Made by a program: the position numbers and the translations under genes | The notes under the pieces: generated by a model | Told to the model about the DNA's origin: nothing | Seen by the model: only the letters and a program-made list of their open reading frames with translations | The model's database searches: none | DNA from: an uncultured Actinomycetota bacterium | GTDB lineage: Bacteria; Actinomycetota; Actinomycetes; Streptomycetales; Streptomycetaceae | NCBI GenBank assembly: GCA_963756705.1 | Contig: CAVWOS010000009.1 | Span: 18,120 to 82,119, forward strand | Reading direction: 5' to 3' | DNA: 64,000 nt | Shown here: in pieces, positions 3,960-36,497 of the stretch | Numbering within the stretch: position 1 is the stretch's first letter | How the letters are laid out: the number at the start of each line of letters is the position of its first letter

Positions 3960-5839
3960 TCACGGCCGGGAGCGGCCGACCGAGCGGAGATGGGCGCGGC
4001 CTTGTTCGCGTTGCCGCTGCGCGAGGAGGTCTTTCGCCCGCCGCATGTCGCGCTGGCCGGTCGATGGGGACACCTCGTTGCGTCGGGCGGCCTCGGCGCC
4101 GGACAGCCTCTTCCCTGTTGCTTCGGCCTCGGCCAGCCACTGGACGATGCGCTCGATGCGCTGGTCCTCGGTCAGCTCGCTGACCGGTGTCTGGTCGATC
4201 CACTGCTCAGGGGCGCGGGCGGTGGCCTCCGCGGGGTCGGTCGCCGGCGCTTCCCGTCGCGTCCCGGCCGCCGCGTCGCCGGTACGGGCGGCAGGGATGC
4301 CCGGTGTGAGATCGGGGGCGGCGGGGCGCGGCGGCTGTGCGTCTGCGCCGGGCCGCTCAGCAGTGACCCGAGCAGGCGCCCCCGCGGGGTCGGGGTCCGG
4401 GGTGTGATGCATGGCCGGTGCCGTGACCGATGAGGTGATGACCGATTCCGTGACCGGTGCGGACGGTCGGTGGCCGGTGCGCGGTGGCCGGCCGGATCGG
4501 TCATGCCGCGGTCACTGGCATCCGTGACCGATTCCGTGACCGATTCCGTTGTCCACTCCCCCGGGTCCTGCGCGCGACGGCCGGGGTCGCGCACCGTCCC
4601 TGGCGCGACGGCCGCCGTGTCGGGCGCGGGGTGTGCTCCGCGTGCGGGGTGGGCGCGCTCGGTCTCCTCTGGGGGGCCTTCTCCCGCCGGGGTGGGCTGT
4701 GGCCGGAGTGCCTGGAACTGCTGGAGCTGGTGGCTGTTCGGGAAGGCGCTGTACTGCCCCGCGTAGTCGCGGTAGTCCTGGAACCGGGCCTCGCCATCGT
4801 CCCGGCCCGTGGAATCGGTGGCCGGCCGCGCGGAGCGGGCGGCGGCGTCGGGGTGGGTGTCGGGGTCGTGTTCCCGGGCCGGGTGTTCCAACGCCATGCC
4901 GGCGTCAGGGGCTGCGGCGCCGGCGTGTTCCAACCCGATCGGCTCCGTCGGCCTCTGTTCCAACGGCCCTCGTTCCAACGGCGCCGGTTCCAACGGTTCC
5001 GGTTCCAGCGTGGCGGGCGCCGGGCGGTGCGGAAGGGCCGGCCCTTGGATGCCCGCGGCCTCCAGGCCGGCTTCCGCGGTCTCGGTGAGCGGCACCCCGT
5101 AGCGGGCGAGCCGCAGCGGCATGATCGCCTCGATGGGGGCCTTGCGGCGCCACGCGACGCCGTACCGCGCGCGCAGCCTGGCCCGGTACACCAGCCGGTC
5201 CTGCTCGCGCCGGATGACCTCCTCGTACGACCGCAGCTCCCACAGCTTCATCCGGCGCCACAGCCTGAAGGTCGGCAGCGGGGCGAGCAGCCAGCGGGTG
5301 ATGCGGACGCCCTCCATGTGCTTGTCGGCCGTGATGTCGGCGATCCGGCCGATCGCGTGCCGGGCGGCCTCGACCGAGACCACGAAGAGCACGGGGATGA
5401 TCGCGTGCATGCCGACGCCGAGCTTGTCGGGCCAGGCCGCGGCGCCGTTGAAGGCGATCGTCGCGATGGTCAGCAGCCACGCCGTCTGCCGCAGCAGCGG
5501 GAACGGGATGCGCAGCCAGGTCAGCAGCAGGTCGAGCGCCAGCAGCACGACGATCCCCGCGTCGACGCCGATCGGGAAGACGTTGGCAAAAGCGCCGAAG
5601 CCCTTGTGCAGGGCGAGCGTGCGCACCGCCGCGTAGGAACCGGCGAAGCCGATCCCGGCGATCACCACCACGCCGGACACCACAACGCCCACCAAGATCC
5701 GGTGCGTGCGGGTCAAATGCATACCGCTGTGGGGAGGGTTCACTTGCCGGCCGGCTTCCCGCGATAGGCCGCCGGTGTGGAGAGCGGGGGCCGGCGGTTC
5801 CGGGTCCGCGGTGCGCGGCTCGGTGTCCGGCTCGACCAT
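3960..5839 (-). CDS. DUF2637-family (Spd-like) membrane protein with C-terminal HTH (frameshift near 4430)
   Basis: IAGIGFAGSYAAVRTLA..FPIGVDAGIVVLLALDL..RWLLAPLPTFRLWRRMKLWELRSY signature; C-terminal LSGAEAARRNEVSPSTGQRDMRRA HTH in ORF 3960..4412. Confidence 0.8.
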
Positions 5840-21136: not shown

Positions 21137-21143
21137 CGGCCCC

Positions 21144-21227
21144 GCCTGGGTGGCGCAACGGCAGACGCAGCCGATTTAAAACCGGCCGCCCCCCGGGGGC
21201 ATGCGGGTTCGAGTCCCGTCCCAGGCG
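21144..21227 (+). tRNA. bldA-like: tRNA-Leu (anticodon UAA), class II, bldA-like; G73 discriminator, A31-C39 mismatch, CCA not encoded
   Basis: acceptor GCCTGGG/CCCAGGC; D-arm GCG-CAACGGCAGA-CGC; anticodon arm GCCGA-TTTAAAA-CCGGC (TAA at 21177-21179); variable arm GCCCC/GGGGC; T-arm GCGGG-TTCGAGT-CCCGT. Confidence 0.85.
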
Positions 21228-21292
21228 CCCGCCCGGCCCGACTCGGGCCGACCCTCCCGGGCCACCTCACAACCGACTGACGGAGGAGACCG

Positions 21293-25502: not shown

Positions 25503-26351
25503 TTACCACGCGGACGCCGCGGCGGTGTCGGGCAGGGTCAGTTCCTGTATGGCCTGGGCGTCGGTGGGCGAGGCGGGCAGGAAGACCACCAGGTGCTGGT
25601 TGTGGTCCTCCGCGACCGTCAACTTCGTGGTGTTGAAGGTGACCCGGCCGGCCATCGGGTGCTGGAACCGCTTCATCGCCGGGGCGTACGCCTGCACCGG
25701 ATGCTCGGACCACATCGCCACGAAGTCCGGGCTGGCCGCGGCGAGCGCCTCCAGCAGCTCCCGCACCCGCGGGTCGTTCGGACAACGCCCCACCGAGGCG
25801 CGGAACTGCCCCAGGATGTCCTTGGCCTCCCGCTGCCAGTCGACCAGCAGCGTCCGCATCGAGGGCCGGGTGAACAGCAGCCAGATGCTGTTGCGCTGCT
25901 CGTCCGGCAGCCCGTCCAGACCGCCGACCAACTGCTCGTAGGCCCGGTTGTACGCCAGCAGGTCCCAGCAGATGTTCGTGACGTGCGCCGGATTGGGGTC
26001 GAGGGTCTCCACCAGGGCCCGCAGCGTCGGGTTGACGACCGCCGGCTGCGGGGTGTCCGGGGAGAACGCCACCCCGGCCAGCGTGTACAAGTGGCGGCGC
26101 TCGGCCGCCGACAACCGCAGGGCACGCGCCAGCCCCTCCAGCACCTGGCCGCTGACAGTGATCTTCCGGCCCTGCTCCAGCCAGGTGTACCAGGTCACGC
26201 TCACCCCGGACATCTGCGCAACCTCCTCGCGCCGCAACCCCGGAGTCCTGCGCCGCGGCCCCGGCTCGATCCCGGCCTCCTCCGGCCGCAGCATCTCCCG
26301 GCGCGAGCGCAGGAACCCGGCCAGCAACTCACGCTGGGTCATATTGTCCAT
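25503..26351 (-). CDS. MmyB/MLTR-family XRE transcriptional regulator
   Basis: LAGFLRSRRE..RRRTPGLRREEVAQMSGVSVTWYTWLEQGR plus a PAS-like ligand domain (PAHVTNICWDLLAYN). Confidence 0.92.
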   Translation of the reverse strand: MDNMTQRELLAGFLRSRREMLRPEEAGIEPGPRRRTPGLRREEVAQMSGVSVTWYTWLEQGRKITVSGQVLEGLARALRLSAAERRHLYTLAGVAFSPDTPQPAVVNPTLRALVETLDPNPAHVTNICWDLLAYNRAYEQLVGGLDGLPDEQRNSIWLLFTRPSMRTLLVDWQREAKDILGQFRASVGRCPNDPRVRELLEALAAASPDFVAMWSEHPVQAYAPAMKRFQHPMAGRVTFNTTKLTVAEDHNQHLVVFLPASPTDAQAIQELTLPDTAAASAW

Positions 26352-26416
26352 GGAGGTACCTCCCGGCGAACCGGTCCCGGCTTTGTCGTGGTGGAGCAGG
26401 TGACCGGCCGGGCTGG

Positions 26417-26809
26417 TCACGGCTTCGGCCGGCACACCTCGCACGCCGTGGTGTCGTCGAACGTGAGCATCCCGCGCGCCTGGCCGGGGTCGGGCACTGG
26501 TGTGATGCGCGTCCCTGTGGCCGGCTTGGCCAGGGTCCAGCAGGTAGCGAGGTGCAGCTCCAGCGTCGGCGGCTTGAGCCGGGTGTCCGTGGAAAGTACG
26601 TACCGGGGTTCGGTCGGCTCTCGCTCGACCGTGCTGTAGTCCTCGCCGTCGATCTGCTGTACGGCCGCCGCAGGCACGGACAGGGCGACATCCGCCAGCC
26701 AGGCTCCGGTCTGGTCCTGCCGCCACCGCCGAAGCCGGCCGGTGGTCACGCGCCCGCCGGGGAGGGTCACCCGGACCTGGGGATCGGGGGAGTCGGATGA
26801 ATCGCTCAT
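26417..26809 (-). CDS. DUF6233-like Zn-binding protein
   Basis: LHLATCW..ACEVCRP motif. Confidence 0.65.
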   Translation of the reverse strand: MSDSSDSPDPQVRVTLPGGRVTTGRLRRWRQDQTGAWLADVALSVPAAAVQQIDGEDYSTVEREPTEPRYVLSTDTRLKPPTLELHLATCWTLAKPATGTRITPVPDPGQARGMLTFDDTTACEVCRPKP

Positions 26810-26907
26810 GTGTTTGATTCTAGAACTTGGCGTTGTGGGCGGGTGGTCCTCGCGCCGCCGCGCGAGGGACCACCCGCTCGCAAACGCGGGGGTGATGCGG
26901 TGGGTGG

Positions 26908-28107: not shown

Positions 28108-28162
28108 ACAGCAAATAGGGGCGCGGATACGGCGATTGCGTATCCGTGCCCCTATTTGCTGT
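28108..28162. repeat. 24-bp inverted repeat (1 mismatch) in a divergent intergenic region
   Basis: ACAGCAAATAGGGGCGCGGATACG-GCGATTG-CGTATCCGTGCCCCTATTTGCTGT. Confidence 0.9.
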
Positions 28163-28296
28163 GTCGGGTCAGTGTGCGGGCCGCTGGAATTTCCGGCCGG
28201 ACGTGCTCTGGTCGTATCCGTGCCGGCACACAAGGCTCGCCGGCGCCGTCGTGCACCCCCACGGCGACGACCCAACCTGGACACGAGGCCACCCAC

Positions 28297-29126
28297 ATGC
28301 CAGAGACCACCCTGCCTGCCGCCGAGGCTGCCGCGCTTGCTGAGCACGAGGCTGTCATCGACCGCGGCATCAAGACGTACTTCGAGGTCGGCGCCGCGCT
28401 GGCGGACATCCGTGACCGGCGCCTGTACCGGGCCAGCTACGCGACGTTCGAGCAGTACGCCGAACGGCGCTGGCAGATGAGCCGGGGCCGCGCCTACCAG
28501 ATGATCGAAGCGGCTGACGCGGTGTCTACAATTGTAGACACCGGAGCGCCTACACCGGCGAACGAGGGCCAGGCCCGGGAACTCTCGCGCGTCCCGGAGC
28601 CGGAACGCGCCGAGGTGTGGGCCGAGACGGTCGAGCGCACCGAGGGTCGGCCCACCGCGGCCGCCGTCCGTGACACCTACCAGCTGCGGCAGCAGCCGGA
28701 CGCCGACCCGCTCATGGATGCCGACCCGCCCTTGCGGATGTCGGCCCACTGGCGGATGTCGACCTGCCCGCGGACTCTGGCTGGGCGCCCCGGCCGGAGC
28801 CCGTGTCTGTGCCTGTGTCAGTGCCTGAGTCGAAGGTCAGGCGGCGCCCGCTGCCCGAGGTGTTCACCGACGCCGTCCGCGACCTCACGCGTGCCGCCGA
28901 GCGCCTGGAGCGCCTCACCGGCGATGACCGGTTCGCCAAGAACCGGGACGTCACGCAGGTTCCCGAGCTCATCGGCGCCCTGGAGCGCACCACGCACTTC
29001 GTCGAGGCCCTCGATCTCCCCGACGCCGAGGCGAGCGAGGAGGCCCGCCGCTGGTGGGCGACGGGCCTGCTCTCGATCAGCGACGCCCTCGCCGATGTCG
29101 CCCGCACCATCGAAGAGGAGCGGTAA
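28297..29126 (+). CDS. phage/plasmid HTH DNA-binding protein (frameshift near 28740-28800)
   Basis: EVGAALADIRDRRLYRASYATFEQYAERRWQMSRGRAYQMIEAA; related to the HTH segment of 24090..25301. Confidence 0.7.
28521..28542. repeat. perfect 22-bp intragenic palindrome
   Basis: GGTGTCTACAATTGTAGACACC, encodes VSTIVDT. Confidence 0.9.
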
Positions 29127-29932
29127 TGCCGACTCGTAAGGCGCTCGACATCGAGATCGTCACGGTCACCCCTGACCTCGCCACGGAGTGGCTCGCCCGC
29201 AACGGGCACAACCGGCCGCTGCGCCAGCGCGCTGTCACCGACTACGCCCGCGACATGGATTCCGGGCACTGGCTCCAGAACGGCGAGGCGATCAAATTTG
29301 CCTCCGACGGCACCCTCCTGGACGGACAGCACCGCCTCCACGCCGTCGTCATGTCCGGTGCCGATGTCGTGATGCTCGTGGTCCGCGGGCTGCCCATGTC
29401 CACGCAGGAAACGATGGACGCAGGTCGCAGGCGCACCACGGCCGACGCCTTCGGGCTGCGCGGTGAGGTCAACGCCACGGTCCTTGCGGCCGTCGCCAGA
29501 CGGGTCTGGATGTGGGAGCAGGGCGACTACAAGTTCGTCGCCAACTACACGCCCACCATGGCGGAATGCTCCGACCTCCTCAGGAGGCGACCGGAGATCT
29601 ACCGGTCGGTGGAGGTCGCTGTCCGCACTCACCAGGCGTTCCGGTACGTCCCGCGGTCCATCACCGGCACCTGCCATCACCTGTTCTCCCGCATCTCCGC
29701 TACGGACGCGCAGTGGTTTTTCGCCCGGCTTGCCGACGGCGCCGATCTCCCTGCCGGCCACCCCGTCCTGACCCTGCGGAACCGGGCCACGACCGAGCGG
29801 ACCGAACACCGCCACGTACCGGACCACCGGTTCACCGCCTACCTCATCCGGGCCTGGAACGCCGTCCGCGAGGACCGCACCCTCCACAAGATCATCCAGG
29901 CCCCCGACGCACCCATGCCCATGCCCAGGTGA
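29126..29932 (+). CDS. DGQHR/ParB-N-like domain protein
   Basis: NRPLRQRAV..YARDM..W..NGEAIKF..LLDGQHRLHAVV; TAATG coupling to the upstream gene. Confidence 0.8.
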   Translation: MPTRKALDIEIVTVTPDLATEWLARNGHNRPLRQRAVTDYARDMDSGHWLQNGEAIKFASDGTLLDGQHRLHAVVMSGADVVMLVVRGLPMSTQETMDAGRRRTTADAFGLRGEVNATVLAAVARRVWMWEQGDYKFVANYTPTMAECSDLLRRRPEIYRSVEVAVRTHQAFRYVPRSITGTCHHLFSRISATDAQWFFARLADGADLPAGHPVLTLRNRATTERTEHRHVPDHRFTAYLIRAWNAVREDRTLHKIIQAPDAPMPMPR

Positions 29933-30285
29933 GCCGGCACGGCGAACCGGGGGTGCGGACACGACGGTTGCGCCCGCGCTTCCGCGCCTCATCGGCGCCG
30001 CCGTCGGCGCCGGGGTCTGCATGGGATTCCGGTCCGCTAGGCGCGGACGGAGCCGGCCACCACCGGTCTGCGCGGCGACCGCCGCCCACCCGGCCGGTCC
30101 GCTGATCCTCCCCGGGGACGACCCCACCCGCGAACGCCCCTGATCCTGTCCCGCCTCGGCGGGCCGACCACCGGCAGCGCCAACCGCCCGCCCGTCCGAT
30201 CAACCCGGCCGGCGCCGCGTGCCCAACCCCCAATCCCCCGAGGGGAGCCACCCCTCGGGAAACCGGAAGACAAGCGGAGAAGAAA

Positions 30286-30684
30286 TTGAGAACCAAACGA
30301 AGAATAGCCCGTGCTATTCCCGTCGCTGCGGCGGGTTGTGTGGCGCTTCTGGCCGCCACCGCTGTACCCGCGCACGCTGAGGACACCCCGTGGGTGTACG
30401 CGTCCAATCACGGCGCGAAAGGCCGGTTCATCGACAACGGAGATCTGATCACGGTCTGCGACATCAAGTCGGACGGCTACAAGGCAATCCTCTGGATCTG
30501 GGACACCCAGACTCCCAAGATCCAGTGGTATCGCGATGACGGCTACAACAACGGAAAGTGCACCACCAAAGTCTCGCCGCTCGTCATGGTACGGAACGAC
30601 GACTACGAGATTCAGGTCTGCATCGCCCACTACACCTACAGCATCCACTGCGGGAAACCGCACGGGTTCCACAACTACAGCTGA
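30286..30684 (+). CDS. small secreted protein with 4 Cys in the mature part
   Basis: signal peptide ending AHA; GGAG SD; TTG start. Confidence 0.65.
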   Translation: MRTKRRIARAIPVAAAGCVALLAATAVPAHAEDTPWVYASNHGAKGRFIDNGDLITVCDIKSDGYKAILWIWDTQTPKIQWYRDDGYNNGKCTTKVSPLVMVRNDDYEIQVCIAHYTYSIHCGKPHGFHNYS

Positions 30685-30765
30685 GGGTGCCGGCCACCCC
30701 GAATCCAGATAACCGATGCCTCGGTTGACGCGTGAGGCAGGAAATCCTCAATCAAGGAGTACAGG

Positions 30766-31131
30766 ATGAACGTCGCGCTGTGGATCGCCGCCGGACTGCT
30801 GGCCACAGTGGCCCTGGCCGGTGGTATCAGCAAGACTTTCGTGCCCAAGGAGAGCCTGGCCAGGGCCCGTGGCGGGGAGTGGACCGCAGGTGTCGGTGCC
30901 GGTTTCGTGAAATCCCTCGGCATTCTTGAACTCCTCGCTGCGGCGGGCCTGATCCTGCCCGCCACACTCGATATCGCGCCGGTGCTCGTGCCGGTGACTG
31001 CCGTCTGCTGGGTCGCCCTGATGATCGGCGCGATGATCACCCATGGCCGCCGCGGTCAGCTCACATTCATGGCGGTCAACCTGATCTATCTCGCGCTCGC
31101 CGTATTCATCGCGGCAGGCAGATTCGGATGA
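30766..31131 (+). CDS. DoxX-family membrane protein
   Basis: MNVALWIAAGLLA..IGILELLAAAGLILP..GAMITHGRR; AAGGAG SD. Confidence 0.85.
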   Translation: MNVALWIAAGLLATVALAGGISKTFVPKESLARARGGEWTAGVGAGFVKSLGILELLAAAGLILPATLDIAPVLVPVTAVCWVALMIGAMITHGRRGQLTFMAVNLIYLALAVFIAAGRFG

Positions 31132-31421
31132 CCCCAACACCCTCCGCCCACGACGAGTCCCGCGCCTGGGTGGGCGCTGCCTAGACGCCGCGGTGATCCC
31201 CGCAGCAGGCAAAGCCGTCCCGATCGGCCCCGACCGTCAGATCGAGCACGCCGCCCCCGCCTGAGTGCCGGCCCGCGCGCCACCCCGACCGCCAGAGGGC
31301 GAGGTGGCGCGCCGGCCGCAAGGCCCCGGGCGCCGATCTGTTGGCGAGTGCCTATCCCGCTGGCCGACGGATATCGATCCGGCCTCCCGGAATTTCACAT
31401 CAGCGCGAACGGAAAGAAATC

Positions 31422-32354
31422 ATGAGGGTTCTTATTGCTGGAGCCACCGGTGCTATCGGCTCCCGGATCTCCGCCCAGCTTCTCAGCGCGGGCCATGACG
31501 TCATCGGTCTTACCCGCACCAATCGTGGCGCGTTCGCACTCGCCCGCGCGGGCGTTAAGCCGATCGTCGTGGATGCGCTGCACCGGCCGAGTCTGCTGCG
31601 CGCGCTGGAGTCGGTGTCGGCGGATGTGGTCGTCCACCAGATGACCTCGCTCACCAGGGCGCCGGCCCGCCACAGCGACATGGCTCAGACAAACCGGCTT
31701 CGGACTCGTGGCACCGAGAATCTCCTTGCGGCAGCCCGGCTGATCGGCGCGGGCCGATTCGTCACCCAATCAATCGTCATGGGATACGGATACACCGATC
31801 ACGGGGCCACGGAGCTCACAGAGACCGACCCGTACGGCGCAGAGCCACACGGCAGGTGCGCCCCGCACGTGGCCGCGATGCTCACCAACGAGCAACTGGT
31901 CAAGTCGGCCACGGACATGGACGGAATCGCTCTGCGCTACGGCATGTTCTACGGCGCGGACATGCCGAAGATAATCGACTTGCTCAAGAAACGGCGCCTG
32001 CCGATCCCGGCACAAGAAAGGGGCAATCTGCTGCCCTGGATTCATATCGATGATGCTGCAGCAGCCACTGTACTGACAATTTCCCGGGGGAGAGCCGGTG
32101 AAGCCTACAACATCACTGACGAACTCCCGTGTTCCTGGGGGCAGTTCTTCAGCGAAATGGCCGAGAAATTCGGAACTCCGGCCCCCAGGACTCTTCCTGC
32201 TTGGGTGATCCGTATGGCTGCGCCCTATATCGGGGCCCTCGTCCTCGACACCAGCATGCGAGTCTCGACCGCCAAAGCCAGACACGACTTGGGTTGGCGG
32301 CCCGTCTATCCCGAGTACCGGGATGGATTCGCGGCATACGCCGCGGCCGCGTAG
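31422..32354 (+). CDS. NAD-dependent epimerase/dehydratase family protein
   Basis: MRVLIAGATGAIG, LRYGMFYG, PWIHIDDAAAA. Confidence 0.9.
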   Translation: MRVLIAGATGAIGSRISAQLLSAGHDVIGLTRTNRGAFALARAGVKPIVVDALHRPSLLRALESVSADVVVHQMTSLTRAPARHSDMAQTNRLRTRGTENLLAAARLIGAGRFVTQSIVMGYGYTDHGATELTETDPYGAEPHGRCAPHVAAMLTNEQLVKSATDMDGIALRYGMFYGADMPKIIDLLKKRRLPIPAQERGNLLPWIHIDDAAAATVLTISRGRAGEAYNITDELPCSWGQFFSEMAEKFGTPAPRTLPAWVIRMAAPYIGALVLDTSMRVSTAKARHDLGWRPVYPEYRDGFAAYAAAA

Positions 32355-32377
32355 TGCATCGCGAGCGAACAAGGAGC

Positions 32378-32441
32378 GTGATAGCCGGCGCATCCCCCGA
32401 CGCCGCGTACCGCGGACTGACCCGCTGGCAGGCGGTCCCGC
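32378..32441 (+). pseudogene. orphaned original 5' end of the APC permease gene
   Basis: AAGGAG SD plus GTG at 32378 gives MIAGASPDAAYRGLTRWQAVP, matching the permease TM1 lead-in at 34738. Confidence 0.7.
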
Positions 32442-32522
32442 CGGCCGGCGGGCGGGCCTCGCCGCACGCTCGGCCTGGCCGTCTAAGCCCAGAACAACAA
32501 CGTCAGCCCGGAGAAGAACCTG

Positions 32523-33524
32523 ATGACCGCCTATCGACTCGCCATCACCGTCCCTGGCATCCCACCGGCGACCCGCACCATCACCGCGGGTCCCGGCGAC
32601 CTCGCGCAAGCCGTGCACGGCCACGTCCGCGGGCTTCTCGGCAGTGCCCGCGTCGACATCCGTCTCGACCCCGACGCGCTCGCCGGGGAGATCACCAACC
32701 ACGGCGTGGCCGCGGGGACGTTCGCGCTGGCCCCCGAGGTGTCTGCCCCGGCGCGGCGCGGCCGAGTGCCGATGCACGGTTACAGTGCCGCGGCCATCGA
32801 CGATGTCGCCCGGCATGCGATCGCTCTCGACCGCTGGCGCAGTGGCGATGTCGAGGAGCGTACGGCGGTGGCGAGGTTCGCCATCGTCGAGCATCTGTGC
32901 ACGGCGGAGGAGCCGGTGACGCGCCGCGAGTTGATCGGGGTCGGGCTGCGCGCCGCGGACCGGTATGTCGTGCGCGAGATGCACCACCACGGCTGGGACA
33001 TCGACAACGTCGCCGCGGGGGGCGGTGCCATGGCCGGCTATCAGCGCTACTGGCAGGCCGGCCCCGGTGCTTCTCCGGAGCGCGGCGTCGTCGAACGCGC
33101 GGCGCTCGCGCAGATCTGGCCGCAGCTCACCCCGCGGCAGCGGCAGGCGCTGGAAGCGCTGCGGGACGCCGGTGACTACGCGCAGGCCGCTGCGTCCTTG
33201 GGGGTCACCGACGGCACGTTCCGGGTGCTGATCAGCAGCGCCCGGCGCCGGTTCCTGCTGTGGTGGCATGAGGGGGAGACGCCGTCGAAGACGTGGCGGA
33301 CGGACCGGCACCTGTACTCCCGTGACGGGATGTGCCGCGGGAAGCGGCAGTTGACCGTGTCCGAGGTGGAGCGGCTGCGGGACCGCTACCAGGACGAGGA
33401 AGGGCCGACGCTCACCGTGCTCGCCGCCGAGGTGGGGGTTCACAAGTCGACACTGTCGGCGCTGCTTCGGGGTCGTACGCGGCCGGCCCCTGATCCGGTC
33501 GATGAGGCGGCTGATGCGGCATGA
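32523..33524 (+). CDS. sigma-70 region-4-like protein with a second C-terminal HTH
   Basis: SPERGVVERAALAQIWPQLTPRQRQAL..YAQAAASLGVTDGTFRVLISSARRRF; TLTVLAAEVGVHKSTLSALLRG. Confidence 0.7.
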   Translation: MTAYRLAITVPGIPPATRTITAGPGDLAQAVHGHVRGLLGSARVDIRLDPDALAGEITNHGVAAGTFALAPEVSAPARRGRVPMHGYSAAAIDDVARHAIALDRWRSGDVEERTAVARFAIVEHLCTAEEPVTRRELIGVGLRAADRYVVREMHHHGWDIDNVAAGGGAMAGYQRYWQAGPGASPERGVVERAALAQIWPQLTPRQRQALEALRDAGDYAQAAASLGVTDGTFRVLISSARRRFLLWWHEGETPSKTWRTDRHLYSRDGMCRGKRQLTVSEVERLRDRYQDEEGPTLTVLAAEVGVHKSTLSALLRGRTRPAPDPVDEAADAA

Positions 33525-34718
33525 CAACCGCGGAGCCCGCCAACCCCGTAGACGACACCACGTTCACCCGGCCCCTGATCAAGGCCCTTCAGGGGCAGAT
33601 CGACGTGCTGGCCGCGACGATTCCCGGGCCGGACGCGCACCGCGTGGCGAGCGCCTGGGTGTACACCAGCATGCTGGCCGCGTGGTGCGAGGACCACGGC
33701 CTGACCCCGACGCGGCTGCGCGCCGACGCCGAGCCGGCGCGCAACGAGCACCAAGCCGCAGGCGGCAGCATGCTGAGCTGGCTGGGTCTCGCGTTCGCCG
33801 ACCTGACCGCGCACCCGGCAACCGCGTGCCTGCTCGACCCCCGCTACAACCCGGCCACCGCGGGCGCTCCGTCGGAGGACGCCGCCCGCGGCCTGATCGA
33901 GCTGGTGGTCCACCGACGCGCCCGACCTGGTCTACCCGACGGGGAGGGGCCCGGCGTCGATCACCGGGTGGCTGGCCGGCGACATGCTCCAGCTTGTCAC
34001 CAGCGAGCGGCGCCTGGCCAACGCCCTGTGCCAGACGCCGTGGTGGGTCGCGGACTTCCTGTGCGAGCGGACCCTGCTCCCCGCGATGTCCGAATGGCCC
34101 GGCGAGCGGCTGCGCGTCATCGACCCCGCCTGCGGGACCGGCCACATCCTCATCTGGATGCTCATCGGCCTGTACCGGTGGTACCGGTCCGACGGCCCCG
34201 GACACCCTGCCTGCACCCCGCAGCACGCGATCCGCCGCGCCCTGTCCGGCCTGCACGGCGTGGAACTCGACCCGCTCACCGCCGCAGTCGCCCGCCTCCG
34301 CGTCCTGGTGACCGCAGGCGCGCTGCTCGCCGGCGACGAAGGGCTGCCCGGCCCGCTGCGCCTCGCCTCGATCCCGCACGAGTGGCGGCCCCGGATCGCG
34401 GTCGGCAACAGCCTCCTGGCCGGCCTCGACGATCCGTGCCCGCCCGGCACGATCCTGGACGACACCGCCGACTACCCGCACATCCTCAAACGCGGCACCT
34501 ACCACGCCGTCATCGCCAACCCCCCGTACATCACCGTCAAAGACCCGGTGGTCAACGCGGCAATCCGGACCGCCTACAGCAACGTGTGCTCCGGCAAGTA
34601 CAGCCTCAGCGTGCCGTTCACCGTGCTGCTCTTCGACCTCGCGATCCGCGGCCGCCACACCGCCGCCGTACCGGAAGCCCCCGAGCAGCTCGGCCTCTTC
34701 CCGGAAACGGCCGCCTGA
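33521..34718 (+). CDS. short (~400 aa) PglX/BREX-2-like N6-adenine DNA methyltransferase (frameshift near 33900)
   Basis: ALCQTPWWVADFLCERTLLPA, IDPACGTGH motif I, GVELDP, ANPPYITVKD..CSGKYSLSVPF. Confidence 0.75.
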
Positions 34719-35992
34719 TGCCCCCGGCCCCGCGCACCGCGGACTGACCCGCTGGCAGGCGGTCCCGCTGGCCATCGGGTCGATCGCCGGCTCCGGCATC
34801 CTCTTCCTGCCGTCGGCGGTGTACTCGCGGGCGGGCCACAACAGCCTGCTGGTGTGGGCGGCCTCGACGCTGCTGTGCCTGCCGATGCTGCTGATGTTCG
34901 ACGACATGGTCCGCAGCAACCCCGGCGGCCGCGGCATCGAGGCGTTCATCCGGCTGGGGCTGGGCGAGATGTTCGGCCGCTGCGTGCCGGTGATGTTCAT
35001 CGCGCTGGTCATCGTCGGCCTGCCGTCCGGCGCGTTCGTCGCCGGACGCTACGTCGCCCAGGCGTTCGACGTGGGCCGCACCGTGACGATCGTCATCGCG
35101 GCGGCCGTGCTGGCCGCCGCGGTGCTGGTCAACCTGATCGGCGCGCGGGCCAGCACCCGGGTGCAGACCGCGGCCACCTGGGGCCTGGTGCTGGTGGCCA
35201 CCGCGCTGCTGGTCTCCGCCATCCCCTCGGTGCACCACGGCCTGCACACCGTCTCACCCACCAGCAGCCACCTGGACGTGGTGCTGCCCGGGGTACTGCT
35301 GGCCTTCTGGGCGTTCGCCGGATTCGAGAACCTGACCTTCCTCGCCCGGGAGTTCCGCGACCCCGAACGCGACTTCCTGCCGGTCAGCGCCCTCGCGCTG
35401 GCCGTCTACGGCGTGTTCACCATCCTGCTCACCGTGGCCATCGCCGTCACCGTGCCCCGCGCCGACGTCGACCAGGTGGTCGGGCTGCTCCAGCTCGCCA
35501 AGGCCGTCGGCTACGGAAAGATCGTCATCTGGGCCGTCACGTTCATCGCCTGCTGCGCCATGCTGCTCAACGCGGTCGCGTGGGTCTGGGGCGTCTCCCA
35601 ACTGGTGCGCGACGCGGCGGACAACGGCATGCTGCCGGCCGCGTTCGCCTCCTCACAGGGGGAGTCCGGCGCACGCCGGAGCCTGGCCCTGCTGGTCGGC
35701 CTGTTCTGCGTGACCTCGGTGGTCCTGGGCTTCCGGCCCTCCACCGTCGTCGACACCACCGCCACCGCCAGCGCGATCTTCATGCTGCTCTACATCCTGA
35801 GCATCATCTCCTACCTGCGGGTGCGCGGCCTGACCGTGCGCTCCGGACTCAACCTGATCCTGCTGGTCGTCATCGTGATCAGCCTCGTCCAGTCCCGCTG
35901 GCAGGCGCTCTACGGGGTGATCGTGCTCCTGGCCGCGCTGGCCGTCCAACTCCTCCAGCGGCGCCGGGCCCGCGGCGCGCCCGCACCGGTGA
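34718..35992 (+). CDS. APC-family amino acid permease (start region reconstructed)
   Basis: GSIAGSGILFLP TM1 motif, FWAFAGFENLTFLAREFRDPER TM6 motif, about 12 TM segments. Confidence 0.85.
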
Positions 35993-36497
35993 CCGGGGCC
36001 TTGGACGAGTTGGACGCGCTGTTCGGCGGCGACGGCTGGACGCACGCGCGGCGGATCGAGGTCCGCGGCGGCTACGCCTCGGACCGTCAGGACCCGCGCT
36101 GGGCCTACTGGCAGGCGACCCGACAGGTCGAGGCGGACCCGGACCGTCCCTGGTACACGCTGGTGCGGCGGTTGCGGGGCGAGGGCAGGGTCATCGAGCG
36201 CGTACGGGTCGTGGACACCCCGCCGACCCTCGGCCAGCTCTACCTGCGGGCAGTGGCCAGGGCCGGGAACACCCCGGCGGGCGAGACGATCCGCGAACTC
36301 GGCCGGGCCCGAGCCCGTTGCTCGGGCTGGACCAGGACGTTTGGCTGTTCGACGGGCCCCGGCCGACCGTCGCGACGCTGCGCTTCAGCGCCCGCGACGA
36401 CCTGCTCGGCATCACGGTCTCCCGCACCCCGGCCGACATCGCGGCCGCCCGCCACCGCTGGCGGACCGCCTGGGACGCCACCGCGGAGCAGACATGA
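35989..36497 (+). CDS. DUF6879-like protein (frameshift near 36310)
   Basis: ARRIEVRGGY..W..G..IERVRVVDTPPT..YL..GETIR..DVWLFD pattern. Confidence 0.55.

What the first reader, a model, noticed from the sequence alone, without database searches (positions are those of the whole stretch)
32378..34768. Recombinase-less 2.3-kb cassette inserted in a permease gene between 33-bp direct repeats, apparently supplying a replacement start
Seen: identical 33-bp repeats (about 42 bp with two mismatches) encode RGLTRWQAVP. The left copy follows the original AAGGAG-GTG start of the permease, and the right copy continues into the permease body. The MTase stop overlaps an ATG (TGATG, 34716-34720) that would be in frame with the permease if the following C5 run were C6. 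Inference: an integrative satellite, mobilised in trans or by recombination between the repeats, that restores its target gene and puts it under cassette control. Excision would regenerate the DoxX-epimerase-permease operon.
Basis: partly seen in the sequence, partly recalled or inferred. Interest (0 to 1): 0.75.

Follow-up and report, generated by a model that had tools for sequence, protein, structure and literature searches.

The report
Phage gene pair between permease-start repeats
The 2.3-kb "cassette" is a leftover piece of a phage (a sigma-factor-like gene plus a DNA methylase gene) lying between two partial copies of the start of a permease gene in a heavily reshuffled, strain-variable locus; nothing shows that it is a self-contained mobile element that could excise and restore an operon.

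Summary
The repeat is real. An identical 33-mer lies at 32409-32441 and 34736-34768, within 59 nt at 90% identity; none is expected by chance. Independent assemblies reproduce both junctions.

The content is a conserved actinophage gene pair: an ECF-sigma-like DNA-binding protein (32523-33524) and a 398-aa N6-adenine methylase (33521-34718). In phage-like contigs a tRNA-Leu(UAA) follows the methylase; here the phage DNA stops at the methylase stop codon. No recombinase was found.

Three relatives have C6 where the window has C5, so ATG 34718 then opens the permease. The methylase frameshift near 33900 is also private to the window.

The satellite and excision reading is not supported:
- The right repeat starts a displaced, 3'-truncated extra copy of a permease. 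Its home, 97-99% identical, is a different operon (FAD oxidase, permease, aminotransferase).
- The left repeat is a stranded relic of about 62 nt. Its unique 30 nt are only 73% like that gene.
- No empty site, circle or epimerase-permease operon turned up anywhere.
- A 98%-identical sister contig carries three copies of the repeat and 2.7 kb more phage-like modules.

Best reading: a prophage-derived fragment in a recombination patchwork. Interest is low to moderate.

The parts
31422..32354 (+). NAD-dependent epimerase/dehydratase gene. It lies in a lower-GC block (61-65% GC) and forms the left flank of the patchwork.
   Evidence: Pfam Epimerase, E 1.3e-25. GC profile. Homology with sister contig L064 starts at 31141-31176, so DoxX (30766-31131) is not part of the shared block. 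Apart from L064's copy, the closest relatives are 66% identical or less.
32378..32452 (+). Left repeat (c1): a stranded relic of the 5' end of an APC permease gene, running from 2 nt before the native start codon to about codon 25.
   Evidence: 54/63 identical to the native start in L073 and 56/62 to L117. The first 30 nt are only 22/30 identical; the next 33 are 32/33. A contig in run X12 departs from the window at 32372.
32409..32441 (+). Exact 33-mer, left copy (codons for RGLTRWQAVP).
   Evidence: The same stretch is 31/33 identical even in another genus (L007), and a native allele (L117) carries it exactly.
32523..33524 (+). ORF333: a phage-type ECF-sigma-like DNA-binding protein. It has an N-terminal beta-rich domain, sigma2/sigma4-like helices and a C-terminal HTH.
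   Evidence: Pfam Sigma70_r4_2 and HTH_31, weak. AlphaFold model pLDDT 82.8. The best PDB fold matches are ECF sigma factors at weak E-values. Homologues lie in phage-like contigs and in 39 IMG/VR contigs.
33521..34718 (+). N6-adenine DNA methylase of the Eco57I/MmeI methylase-domain type, 398 aa in relatives. It is frameshifted by one extra base near 33900 in the window only. Its start overlaps the ORF333 stop (ATGA).
   Evidence: Pfam Eco57I, 31 bits against a cut-off of 25.3. Motifs DPACGTGH and NPPY are read from the sequence. 83% aa identity over the full length to the 400-aa protein of phage-like contig L067. L064, L065 and contigs in runs X1 and X4 lack the extra base.
34716..34725 (+). 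TGATG stop/start overlap followed by the C5 run. Relatives have C6, which puts ATG 34718 in frame with the permease.
   Evidence: In phage-like contigs the methylase stop is followed by a tRNA-Leu(UAA), so phage homology ends here.
34736..34768 (+). Exact 33-mer, right copy.
34721..35999 (+). Displaced extra copy of an APC-family permease gene. It lacks the native first few codons and the last 19 codons.
   Evidence: Pfam AA_permease_2, E 6.6e-30. 98.7% nt identity to L071 and 97.4% to L117 (native operon), and 98.5% to L073 (second displaced context), over this stretch only.
36000..36497 (+). Fragment of a DUF6879 gene fused in frame to the truncated permease. It has a frameshift near 36316 in the window, and its end overlaps the start of the PTS EIIC gene.
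   Evidence: Pfam DUF6879, E 2e-18. The contig in run X1 has an extra A at 36316. The corrected reading gives a 593-aa fusion ending ...WDATAEQT. L064 keeps only the last ~15 nt of this gene.

Best explanation
The segment 32442-34735 is a non-autonomous fragment of a temperate actinophage early operon. It carries an ECF-sigma-like DNA-binding protein and an orphan N6-adenine methylase, and it is cut exactly at the methylase stop codon. It lies in a strain-variable patchwork locus built by recombination.

The two 'direct repeats' are two partial copies of the conserved start of an APC permease gene, and they have different ancestry:
- The left copy is a short stranded relic joined to the end of an epimerase gene.
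- The right copy is the beginning of a displaced, 3'-truncated second copy of a permease whose original sits in another operon.

The exact 33-bp identity reflects strong conservation of the RGLTRWQAVP codons in this gene family, not a target duplication.

In relatives that lack the window's private one-base indels, the three ORFs are translationally coupled (ATGA, then TGATG). The phage-derived pair therefore supplies the start, and probably the transcription, of the displaced permease-DUF6879 fusion.

Shown: the anatomy, the phage origin of the gene pair, the permease's other homes, the C6 state in relatives, and strain variation at this locus.

Inferred: the patchwork arose by illegitimate or microhomology-mediated joins and segmental duplication. 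The short repeats now serve only as substrates for RecA-type gain or loss of the modules between them.
For: Phage origin of the gene pair:
- The ORF333-plus-methylase pair recurs with overlapping stop and start in phage-like contigs L067, L068, L069/L070 and L075-L077, among DnaB, IstB-like, WhiB, HNH, DUF5131 and RNase_T genes.
- ORF333 relatives occur in 39 IMG/VR contigs, followed by a methylase in L078, L080 and L101.
- In L067 and L075/L076 the methylase stop is followed at once by a tRNA-Leu(UAA). In the window, homology ends at that stop.
- No recombinase was found by Pfam or PHROGs, and the fold is sigma-like.

The permease's other homes:
- Native operon in L071, L072 and L117.
- A second displaced copy in L073 and L074, carrying 45 nt of the aminotransferase gene with it.

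Ancestry of the two repeats:
- The left copy is 73% identical in its unique 30 nt, against 97.4-98.7% for the body.
- The core is 31/33 identical even in Actinacidiphila, and native allele L117 has the exact 33-mer.

Strain variation:
- Sister contig L064 (98% identical) has three copies of the fragment and 2.68 kb of further phage-like modules. These hold two diverged paralogues of ORF333 (41% and 38% aa identity), two tRNA-Leu(UAA) genes and a 174-nt repeat.
- The 3' junction of the permease differs between the window and L064.
- The window's three frameshifts are all absent from relatives.
Against: - The history cannot be reconstructed step by step.
- In L064, both ORF333 and its paralogue ORF316 are preceded by the same 23-nt permease fragment (22/23 identical) and a shared 31-nt stretch. 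This also resembles tandem integration of related elements at one attachment site.
- Two permease-derived pieces 2.3 kb apart are unlikely to be neighbours by accident, so homology played some part in the joining, and the exact event is not identified.
- Expression of the coupled operon has not been shown.
- All comparison sequences are metagenome contigs. It is not known whether the native operon copy is in the same genome as the window.
Confidence: 0.6

Rival explanations
1. Decayed site-specific integrations. One or more related temperate phages or integrative elements, with an attP just upstream of their sigma-like gene, integrated (in tandem in L064) into the conserved 5' core of a permease copy. 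Internal deletions then removed the integrase and most genes, leaving attL- and attR-like repeats.
For: - Direct repeats flank phage-derived DNA.
- In L064 three copies delimit successive modules, each led by an ORF333-family gene.
- The left ends of modules A and B share the 23-mer, a 31-mer and a 72%-identical N-terminal domain, while the rest of the proteins is about 30% identical. Conserved att arms would look like this.
Against: - No integrase lies in the cassette, and none turned up among the window ORFs scanned.
- In the phage-like contigs examined (L067-L070), the region upstream of the ORF333 homologue holds nothing like the core.
- The core was not found in IMG/VR, and no permease relative lies next to any viral contig.
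- The sequence left of the core in L064 copy 2 (…CCCCCCGCCTA) differs from the window's right copy (…CCCCCGGCCCCGCGCA), although module A is 98% identical. Exchange inside a core would not produce this.
- The left flank and the body have very different divergence from the native gene.
Confidence: 0.2
2. One reading: a currently mobile, recombinase-less integrative satellite, mobilised in trans, which restores its target gene. Its excision would regenerate a DoxX-epimerase-permease operon.
For: The repeats, the lack of a recombinase, and an in-frame replacement start in relatives. The locus also varies between strains.
Against: - No empty site or circle joint was seen in contigs of eight runs.
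- No uninterrupted allele was found in 5.8 billion proteins, nor the left-copy sequence in JGI metagenome contigs.
- Near-identical copies of the cassette occur only at this locus.
- Excision would join a 73%-like N-terminal stub to a 97-99%-like body.
- DoxX and the epimerase are not linked to the permease in any relative.
- The content is two ordinary phage early genes cut at a gene end.
Confidence: 0.05
3. Assembly artefact: the repeat and the cassette placement result from misjoining of metagenomic reads at a shared sequence.
For: The window seems to come from an error-prone metagenome assembly. It has three private one-base indels, and sister contigs from the same project show many split genes (L072 against L071).
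Against: Both junctions are reproduced independently: the left one in L064, from another sample, and the right one in a short-read contig of run X1. L065 matches the cassette at 99.7%. The alternative contexts of the permease each recur in two samples.
Confidence: 0.02

Closest known systems
Cryptic prophage remnants and phage-derived gene fragments in Streptomycetaceae chromosomes
   Same: The genes have phage homologues in phage gene order. The segment is truncated at a gene boundary, has no integrase or structural genes, varies between strains, and has another phage-family gene (phrog_5931, 29054-29932) nearby.
   Different: The fragment is bracketed by two pieces of one host gene and is translationally coupled to a displaced host permease. 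Ordinary remnants do not show this.
Prophages that integrate into a gene and restore or regulate it (for example the phi10403S/comK, SPbeta/spsM and skin/sigK switches; from general knowledge)
   Same: Foreign DNA lies inside the 5' part of a coding sequence between direct repeats, and a start codon at the element's edge reads into the downstream gene.
   Different: Those elements carry their own recombinase, excise precisely and rejoin two halves of one gene. Here there is no recombinase, no empty site, and the two flanks have different ancestry.
Tandem accretion of integrative elements at one attachment site
   Same: The sister contig L064 has three copies of the repeat delimiting successive modules with related left ends.
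   Different: The modules are 0.8-2.3 kb, lack integration genes, and their junction sequences do not fit exchange within a common core.
Complex rearrangements from break repair with template switching or NHEJ capture of DNA fragments in Streptomyces chromosome arms (from general knowledge)
   Same: Short fragments of one gene are interleaved with unrelated DNA. There are local partial duplications (the 174-nt repeat in L064), junctions in short patches of similarity, and different breakpoints in sister strains.
   Different: This is a process, not a family. No direct signature specific to it could be tested here.
Phage orphan N6-adenine methylases of the Eco57I/MmeI/PglX methylase-domain type
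   Same: Motif I (DPACGTGH), motif IV (NPPY) and a Pfam Eco57I hit.
   Different: The protein is only 398 aa. It has no nuclease domain, no BREX partners and no recognisable target-recognition domain, and it is always paired with a sigma-like DNA-binding protein.

Membership tests
Site-specific integrative element (prophage, ICE/AICE, phage satellite) | Encodes, or demonstrably borrows, an integrase or recombinase | tested here: not met
   No recombinase domain in ORF333 or the methylase by Pfam or PHROGs. The ORF333 fold matches sigma factors. None was found among the other window ORFs scanned. Borrowing in trans cannot be tested.
Site-specific integrative element (prophage, ICE/AICE, phage satellite) | Flanking direct repeats (attL/attR) sharing an identical core | tested here: met
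   Exact 33-mer at both ends. The same identity is expected from conservation of the coding motif alone.
Site-specific integrative element (prophage, ICE/AICE, phage satellite) | An unoccupied target (attB) exists in relatives, and the two flanks are halves of one gene | tested here: not met
   No protein with the left-copy N-terminus, and no empty-site joint. The left flank is 73% and the right flank 97-99% identical to the native gene.
Site-specific integrative element (prophage, ICE/AICE, phage satellite) | An excised circular form, or the same element at the same site in unrelated hosts or at a second site | tested here: inconclusive
   No back-joint in contigs of eight runs, but contigs show presence, not absence. 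Near-identical copies occur only at this locus. No raw reads of the source were available.
Prophage remnant / phage-derived fragment | Genes homologous to phage genes and in the phage gene order | tested here: met
   The ORF333-methylase pair occurs in L067, L068, L069/L070 and L075-L077, and in IMG/VR contigs L078, L080 and L101.
Prophage remnant / phage-derived fragment | Truncated relative to the phage arrangement; lacks structural, lysis and integration genes | tested here: met
   The tRNA-Leu(UAA) that follows the methylase in L067 and L075/L076 is missing, and homology stops at the stop codon. The scanned window ORFs include no phage structural genes.
Integron gene cassette | An attC recombination site at the cassette end and an IntI integrase with attI nearby | tested here: not met
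   No integrase domain in the scanned ORFs. No inverted-repeat structure at the cassette ends among the repeats found. The repeats are coding sequence of a permease.
ECF-type sigma factor (for ORF333) | Sigma2 and sigma4 domains able to bind RNA polymerase and the promoter | tested here: inconclusive
   Sigma70_r4_2 scores 24.7 bits, below its 25.7 cut-off. The profile hits RpoE 5uxx at E 0.0036. Foldseek's top hits are ECF sigmas at E 2e-3 to 1e-1 with low TM-scores, because the model has several domains. The extra N-terminal domain and C-terminal HTH are atypical.
Type IIG / BREX PglX methyltransferases (for the methylase) | A large protein (over 900 aa) with a target-recognition domain and, for PglX, BREX partner genes | tested here: not met
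   It is 398 aa, and its closest homologue is also 400 aa. No partner genes were found. Only the methylase domain matches. There is no PDB sequence match.

The most novel reading that the evidence does not exclude
The ORF333-led modules are a new kind of small, recombinase-less cassette that is targeted to the conserved 5' core of this permease gene and accumulates there in tandem. Each new arrival would copy the 23-33-nt core and hand a fresh start codon to whatever lies downstream. The sigma-like protein or a helper phage would provide the recombination. The repeated appearance of the same permease ORF at gene-exact junctions in three contexts would then belong to the same unknown shuffling process.
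Probability: 0.06. Interest if true: 0.75.

Novelty: new member of a known kind. Interest (0 to 1): 0.3.

Why it matters
As it stands, this is a worked example of how a convincing-looking 'insertion between direct repeats' can come from ordinary genome decay and reshuffling. The repeat is the most conserved stretch of a gene present in several partial copies, and the insert is a phage fragment.

Three smaller points have some value:
- A widespread but unannotated actinophage module: a sigma-like protein, a small methylase and often a tRNA-Leu(UAA), the tRNA that reads the rare TTA codon. It is absent from 50,697 GenBank phage records.
- A case where phage-derived genes supply the translational start of a relocated host transporter.
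- A permease gene that was copied out of its operon at least twice, with junctions at or near gene boundaries.

If the minority reading (targeted tandem cassettes) were true, it would be a new mode of gene insertion in actinomycetes.

Tried and rejected
- DNA search of the cassette against GenBank phages gave no match. Against plasmids it gave only weak hits (about 70% over 150-600 nt) to methylase genes of Streptomyces linear plasmids.
- Protein searches of ORF333 and the methylase against GenBank phages gave no match.
- Exact-pattern scans for the repeat core found nothing in IMG/VR or in JGI metagenome contigs. A scan for the left-copy-specific sequence in JGI metagenome contigs also found nothing.
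- A permease search in IMG/VR found nothing.
- I first took the conserved sequence upstream of the permease in other genera for an RNA leader. It is the 3' end of the FAD-oxidase gene.
- I first thought the methylase was a truncated PglX-like protein. Its closest phage-like homologue has the same length.
- Deriving the window from L064 by a simple crossover between copies 2 and 3 does not reproduce the window's junction sequence.
- The window's DUF6879 fragment is not the same gene as the DUF6879 downstream of the permease in L073 (44-61% aa identity). The window is therefore not a deletion derivative of that context.
- Loose-end sequences of the run X1, X2 and X4 contigs matched none of the loci fetched.
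- Runs that hold the epimerase have a depth of only about 2 and gave a single informative contig.
Full report

- The 33-mer ACCGCGGACTGACCCGCTGGCAGGCGGTCCCGC occurs exactly twice, at 32409-32441 and 34736-34768. No match with up to three mismatches appeared in 100 shuffles.
- The similarity extends to 59 nt at 90% identity. Both copies encode RGLTRWQAVP.
- The left copy follows AAGGAG and GTG 32378. The spacer is only 1 nt, and the ATA at 32381 aligns with the ATG of the native gene.
- The right copy runs into an APC-family permease (AA_permease_2, E 6.6e-30). Its frame has no ATG, GTG or TTG before 34819.
- TGATG lies at 34716-34720 and is followed by C5.

**What lies between the repeats**

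There are two genes.

- ORF333 (32523-33524) has weak sigma-70 region 4 and HTH hits. Its AlphaFold model (pLDDT 82.8) has ECF sigma factors as its best PDB fold matches, at weak E-values. No recombinase is among them.
- The second gene overlaps the ORF333 stop (ATGA) and is an Eco57I/MmeI-type N6-adenine methylase with DPACGTGH and NPPY motifs. In the window it is split by one extra base near 33900.

The pair is a phage module.

- ORF333 has only 46 homologues in 5.8 billion proteins.
- The contexts I fetched (L067, L068, L069/L070, L075-L077) are runs of small co-directional genes with DnaB, IstB-like, WhiB, HNH, DUF5131, RNase_T and phage zinc-binding domains. In every one the ORF333 homologue is followed, with overlapping stop and start, by a methylase.
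- L067 carries 65%- and 83%-identical versions. Its methylase has 400 aa, so the 398-aa protein is full length.
- 39 IMG/VR contigs encode relatives of ORF333, several with the methylase next to it.
- None of 50,697 GenBank phage records has either gene.
- In L067 and L075/L076 the methylase stop is followed at once by a tRNA-Leu(UAA). In the window, homology to the phage arrangement ends at that stop codon.

The 'cassette' is therefore a piece of a phage early operon cut at a gene end.

- L065, a short-read contig 99.7% identical to 32412-34725, ends ...TGATGCCCCCCG.
- A 93%-identical contig in run X1 has an extra C after 34720.
- L064 has C6 at the equivalent place.
- With C6, ATG 34718 reads MPPGPAHRGLTRWQAVPLAIG....

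The same relatives lack the extra base near 33900, and the X1 contig has an extra A at 36316, where the downstream DUF6879 reading frame breaks. All three frameshifts are thus private to the window. Sister contigs from the same project show many split genes (L072 against L071: 17 gaps in 21 kb). These frameshifts are probably consensus errors, though recent decay cannot be excluded.

In the corrected form, ORF333, the methylase and a 593-aa permease-DUF6879 fusion are translationally coupled. The fusion's end overlaps the start of a PTS EIIC gene.

**The permease is not at home here**

- Its closest relatives are 449-aa proteins that begin MTDAPQDAAHRGLTRWQ.
- In L071, L072 and L117 this gene sits between an FAD-linked oxidase and an aminotransferase, with overlapping stops and starts. 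The cluster also holds a sulfotransferase and PAPS-synthesis genes.
- More distant relatives (L001-L004, L010, L013) keep a conserved coding stretch directly upstream of the permease; in L071 the matching stretch is the 3' end of the FAD-oxidase gene.
- None of 63 related loci has DoxX, the epimerase, ORF333 or the methylase within 10 kb.
- The window matches the native gene only over 34721/34730-35999 (98.7% to L071, 97.4% to L117). It lacks the last 19 codons and is fused in frame to a fragment of a DUF6879 gene.
- A second displaced copy exists in L073 and L074. There the whole ORF, from 2 nt before the ATG to 45 nt past the stop, lies between an MFS gene and a truncated MmyB-like regulator.

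**The left repeat is a relic of different ancestry**

- It aligns with the native gene from 2 nt before the start codon. It is 54/63 identical to L073 and 56/62 to L117.
- Its first 30 nt are only 22/30 identical, although native alleles differ among themselves by at most 2 in that stretch. The next 33 nt are 32/33 identical.
- A variable tail followed by a near-identical core is what a moderately distant functional homologue looks like. The Actinacidiphila gene (72% aa overall) is 31/33 identical in the core, and the native allele L117 has the 33-mer exactly.
- The exact repeat is therefore explained by conservation of these codons. The left stub and the 97-99%-like body cannot be two halves of one recently split gene.

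Searches for an intact version all failed, although each of these negatives is weak on its own:
- No protein with the stub's N-terminus exists in the database.
- The epimerase has no close relative other than L064's.
- The stub-specific sequence and the core are absent from JGI metagenome contigs, and the core is absent from IMG/VR.
- Contigs of eight runs show no empty-site or circle joint.
- One low-depth contig in run X12 follows the epimerase end to 32372 and then departs.

**The locus varies between strains**

- L064, from another sample, is 98% identical to 31176-34752 and 97% to 34730-35963. Its PTS side is only 86% identical, and it is unrelated further out on both sides. DoxX is not shared.
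- L064 has 2.68 kb more between the methylase and the permease, and three copies of the permease fragment.
- The extra DNA holds:
  - ORF316, a 41%-identical paralogue of ORF333 whose upstream region and N-terminal domain are much more similar;
  - two small ORFs, one of which follows ORF333 homologues in other viral contigs;
  - a 212-aa third paralogue;
  - two tRNA-Leu(UAA) genes inside a 174-nt direct repeat.
- The middle copy is 22/23 identical to the left stub, not to the native gene. The sequence to its left differs from the window's right copy, so neither form derives from the other by one crossover.
- The 3' junction of the permease also differs between the two contigs.

**Interpretation**

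The best reading is a phage-derived fragment in a patchwork made by illegitimate joins, local duplications and deletions. Short permease-derived repeats now offer substrates for homologous gain and loss of modules.

Decayed tandem integrations at a permease-borne attachment site remain possible at about one in five. The shared left ends of modules A and B would fit that. Three things count against it: no integrase was found, the core is missing from the phage-like contigs examined and from IMG/VR, and the junction sequences do not match.

An active satellite whose excision restores a DoxX-epimerase-permease operon is not supported. An assembly artefact is excluded by the independent recovery of both junctions.

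**Source organism**

The best genome match for the permease is Kitasatospora sp. NBC_01539 at 83% aa identity. I infer that the window comes from a Streptomycetaceae genome assembled from a soil metagenome.

Noticed in passing
L071 10001-11350; L073/L074 10001-11350; window 34721-35999; L064 14873-16141: The same permease ORF (97-99% nt identity) sits in three gene contexts in the same soil metagenomes: its native operon, an MFS/MmyB-like context, and the phage-fragment context. The left junctions fall between -13 and about +22 of the start codon (-2 in L073/L074). The right junctions are at +45 nt past the stop (L073/L074) or 58 and 94 nt before the end of the ORF. Overlapping stop/start coupling is kept in the MFS context. 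How the gene was copied out twice is unexplained.
   Followed up: partly
window 21143-21230: A tRNA-Leu(UAA) gene, the bldA type that reads the rare TTA codon. It is 87.5% identical over 72 nt to a tRNA lying just after an ORF333-like gene in viral contig L096. I could not tell whether it is the host's own bldA or phage-derived.
   Followed up: partly
L067 ~4934-5020; L075 ~5417-5490; L064 13874-13957 and 14654-14738: Phage-like contigs carry a tRNA-Leu(UAA) directly after the sigma-like/methylase pair. None of the cassette genes contains a TTA codon, so its clients must lie elsewhere in the phage.
   Followed up: partly
window 29054-29932 (and overlapping ORF 28156-29139): A 292-aa protein with a ParB-like DGQHR motif matches phage family phrog_5931 at E 6e-69. 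It is a second phage-derived gene 2.5 kb upstream of the cassette, separated from it by a low-GC block (30200-32400) that holds a small secreted protein, DoxX and the epimerase.
   Followed up: partly
window 25503-26819 (- strand): An MmyB-like regulator (HTH_31 + MLTR_LBD). A 97.7%-identical copy, missing its 5' end and fused to the first 15 codons of the aminotransferase gene, follows the displaced permease in L073 and L074.
   Followed up: partly
window 35999/36000 and ~36316: In-frame fusion of the truncated permease to a DUF6879 fragment, with a one-base frameshift that a related contig in run X1 lacks. L064 has replaced all but the last ~15 nt of this DUF6879 gene with a low-GC stretch encoding a 93-aa membrane-like ORF.
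   Followed up: partly
L066 (Streptomyces sp. BB1-1-1 linear plasmid NZ_CP134205.1) 6603-7913: A 436-aa 'DNA methylase', 35% identical to the cassette methylase, recurs near position 54 kb of several Streptomyces linear plasmids. It is preceded by a 453-aa hypothetical protein that I did not compare with ORF333.
   Followed up: no
L064 12285-13235 (ORF316), residues 268-315: The C-terminus of the ORF333 paralogue carries an HNH-endonuclease-like zinc-finger stretch (phrog_826 and phrog_1492, E about 5e-7) in place of the C-terminal HTH of ORF333.
   Followed up: no
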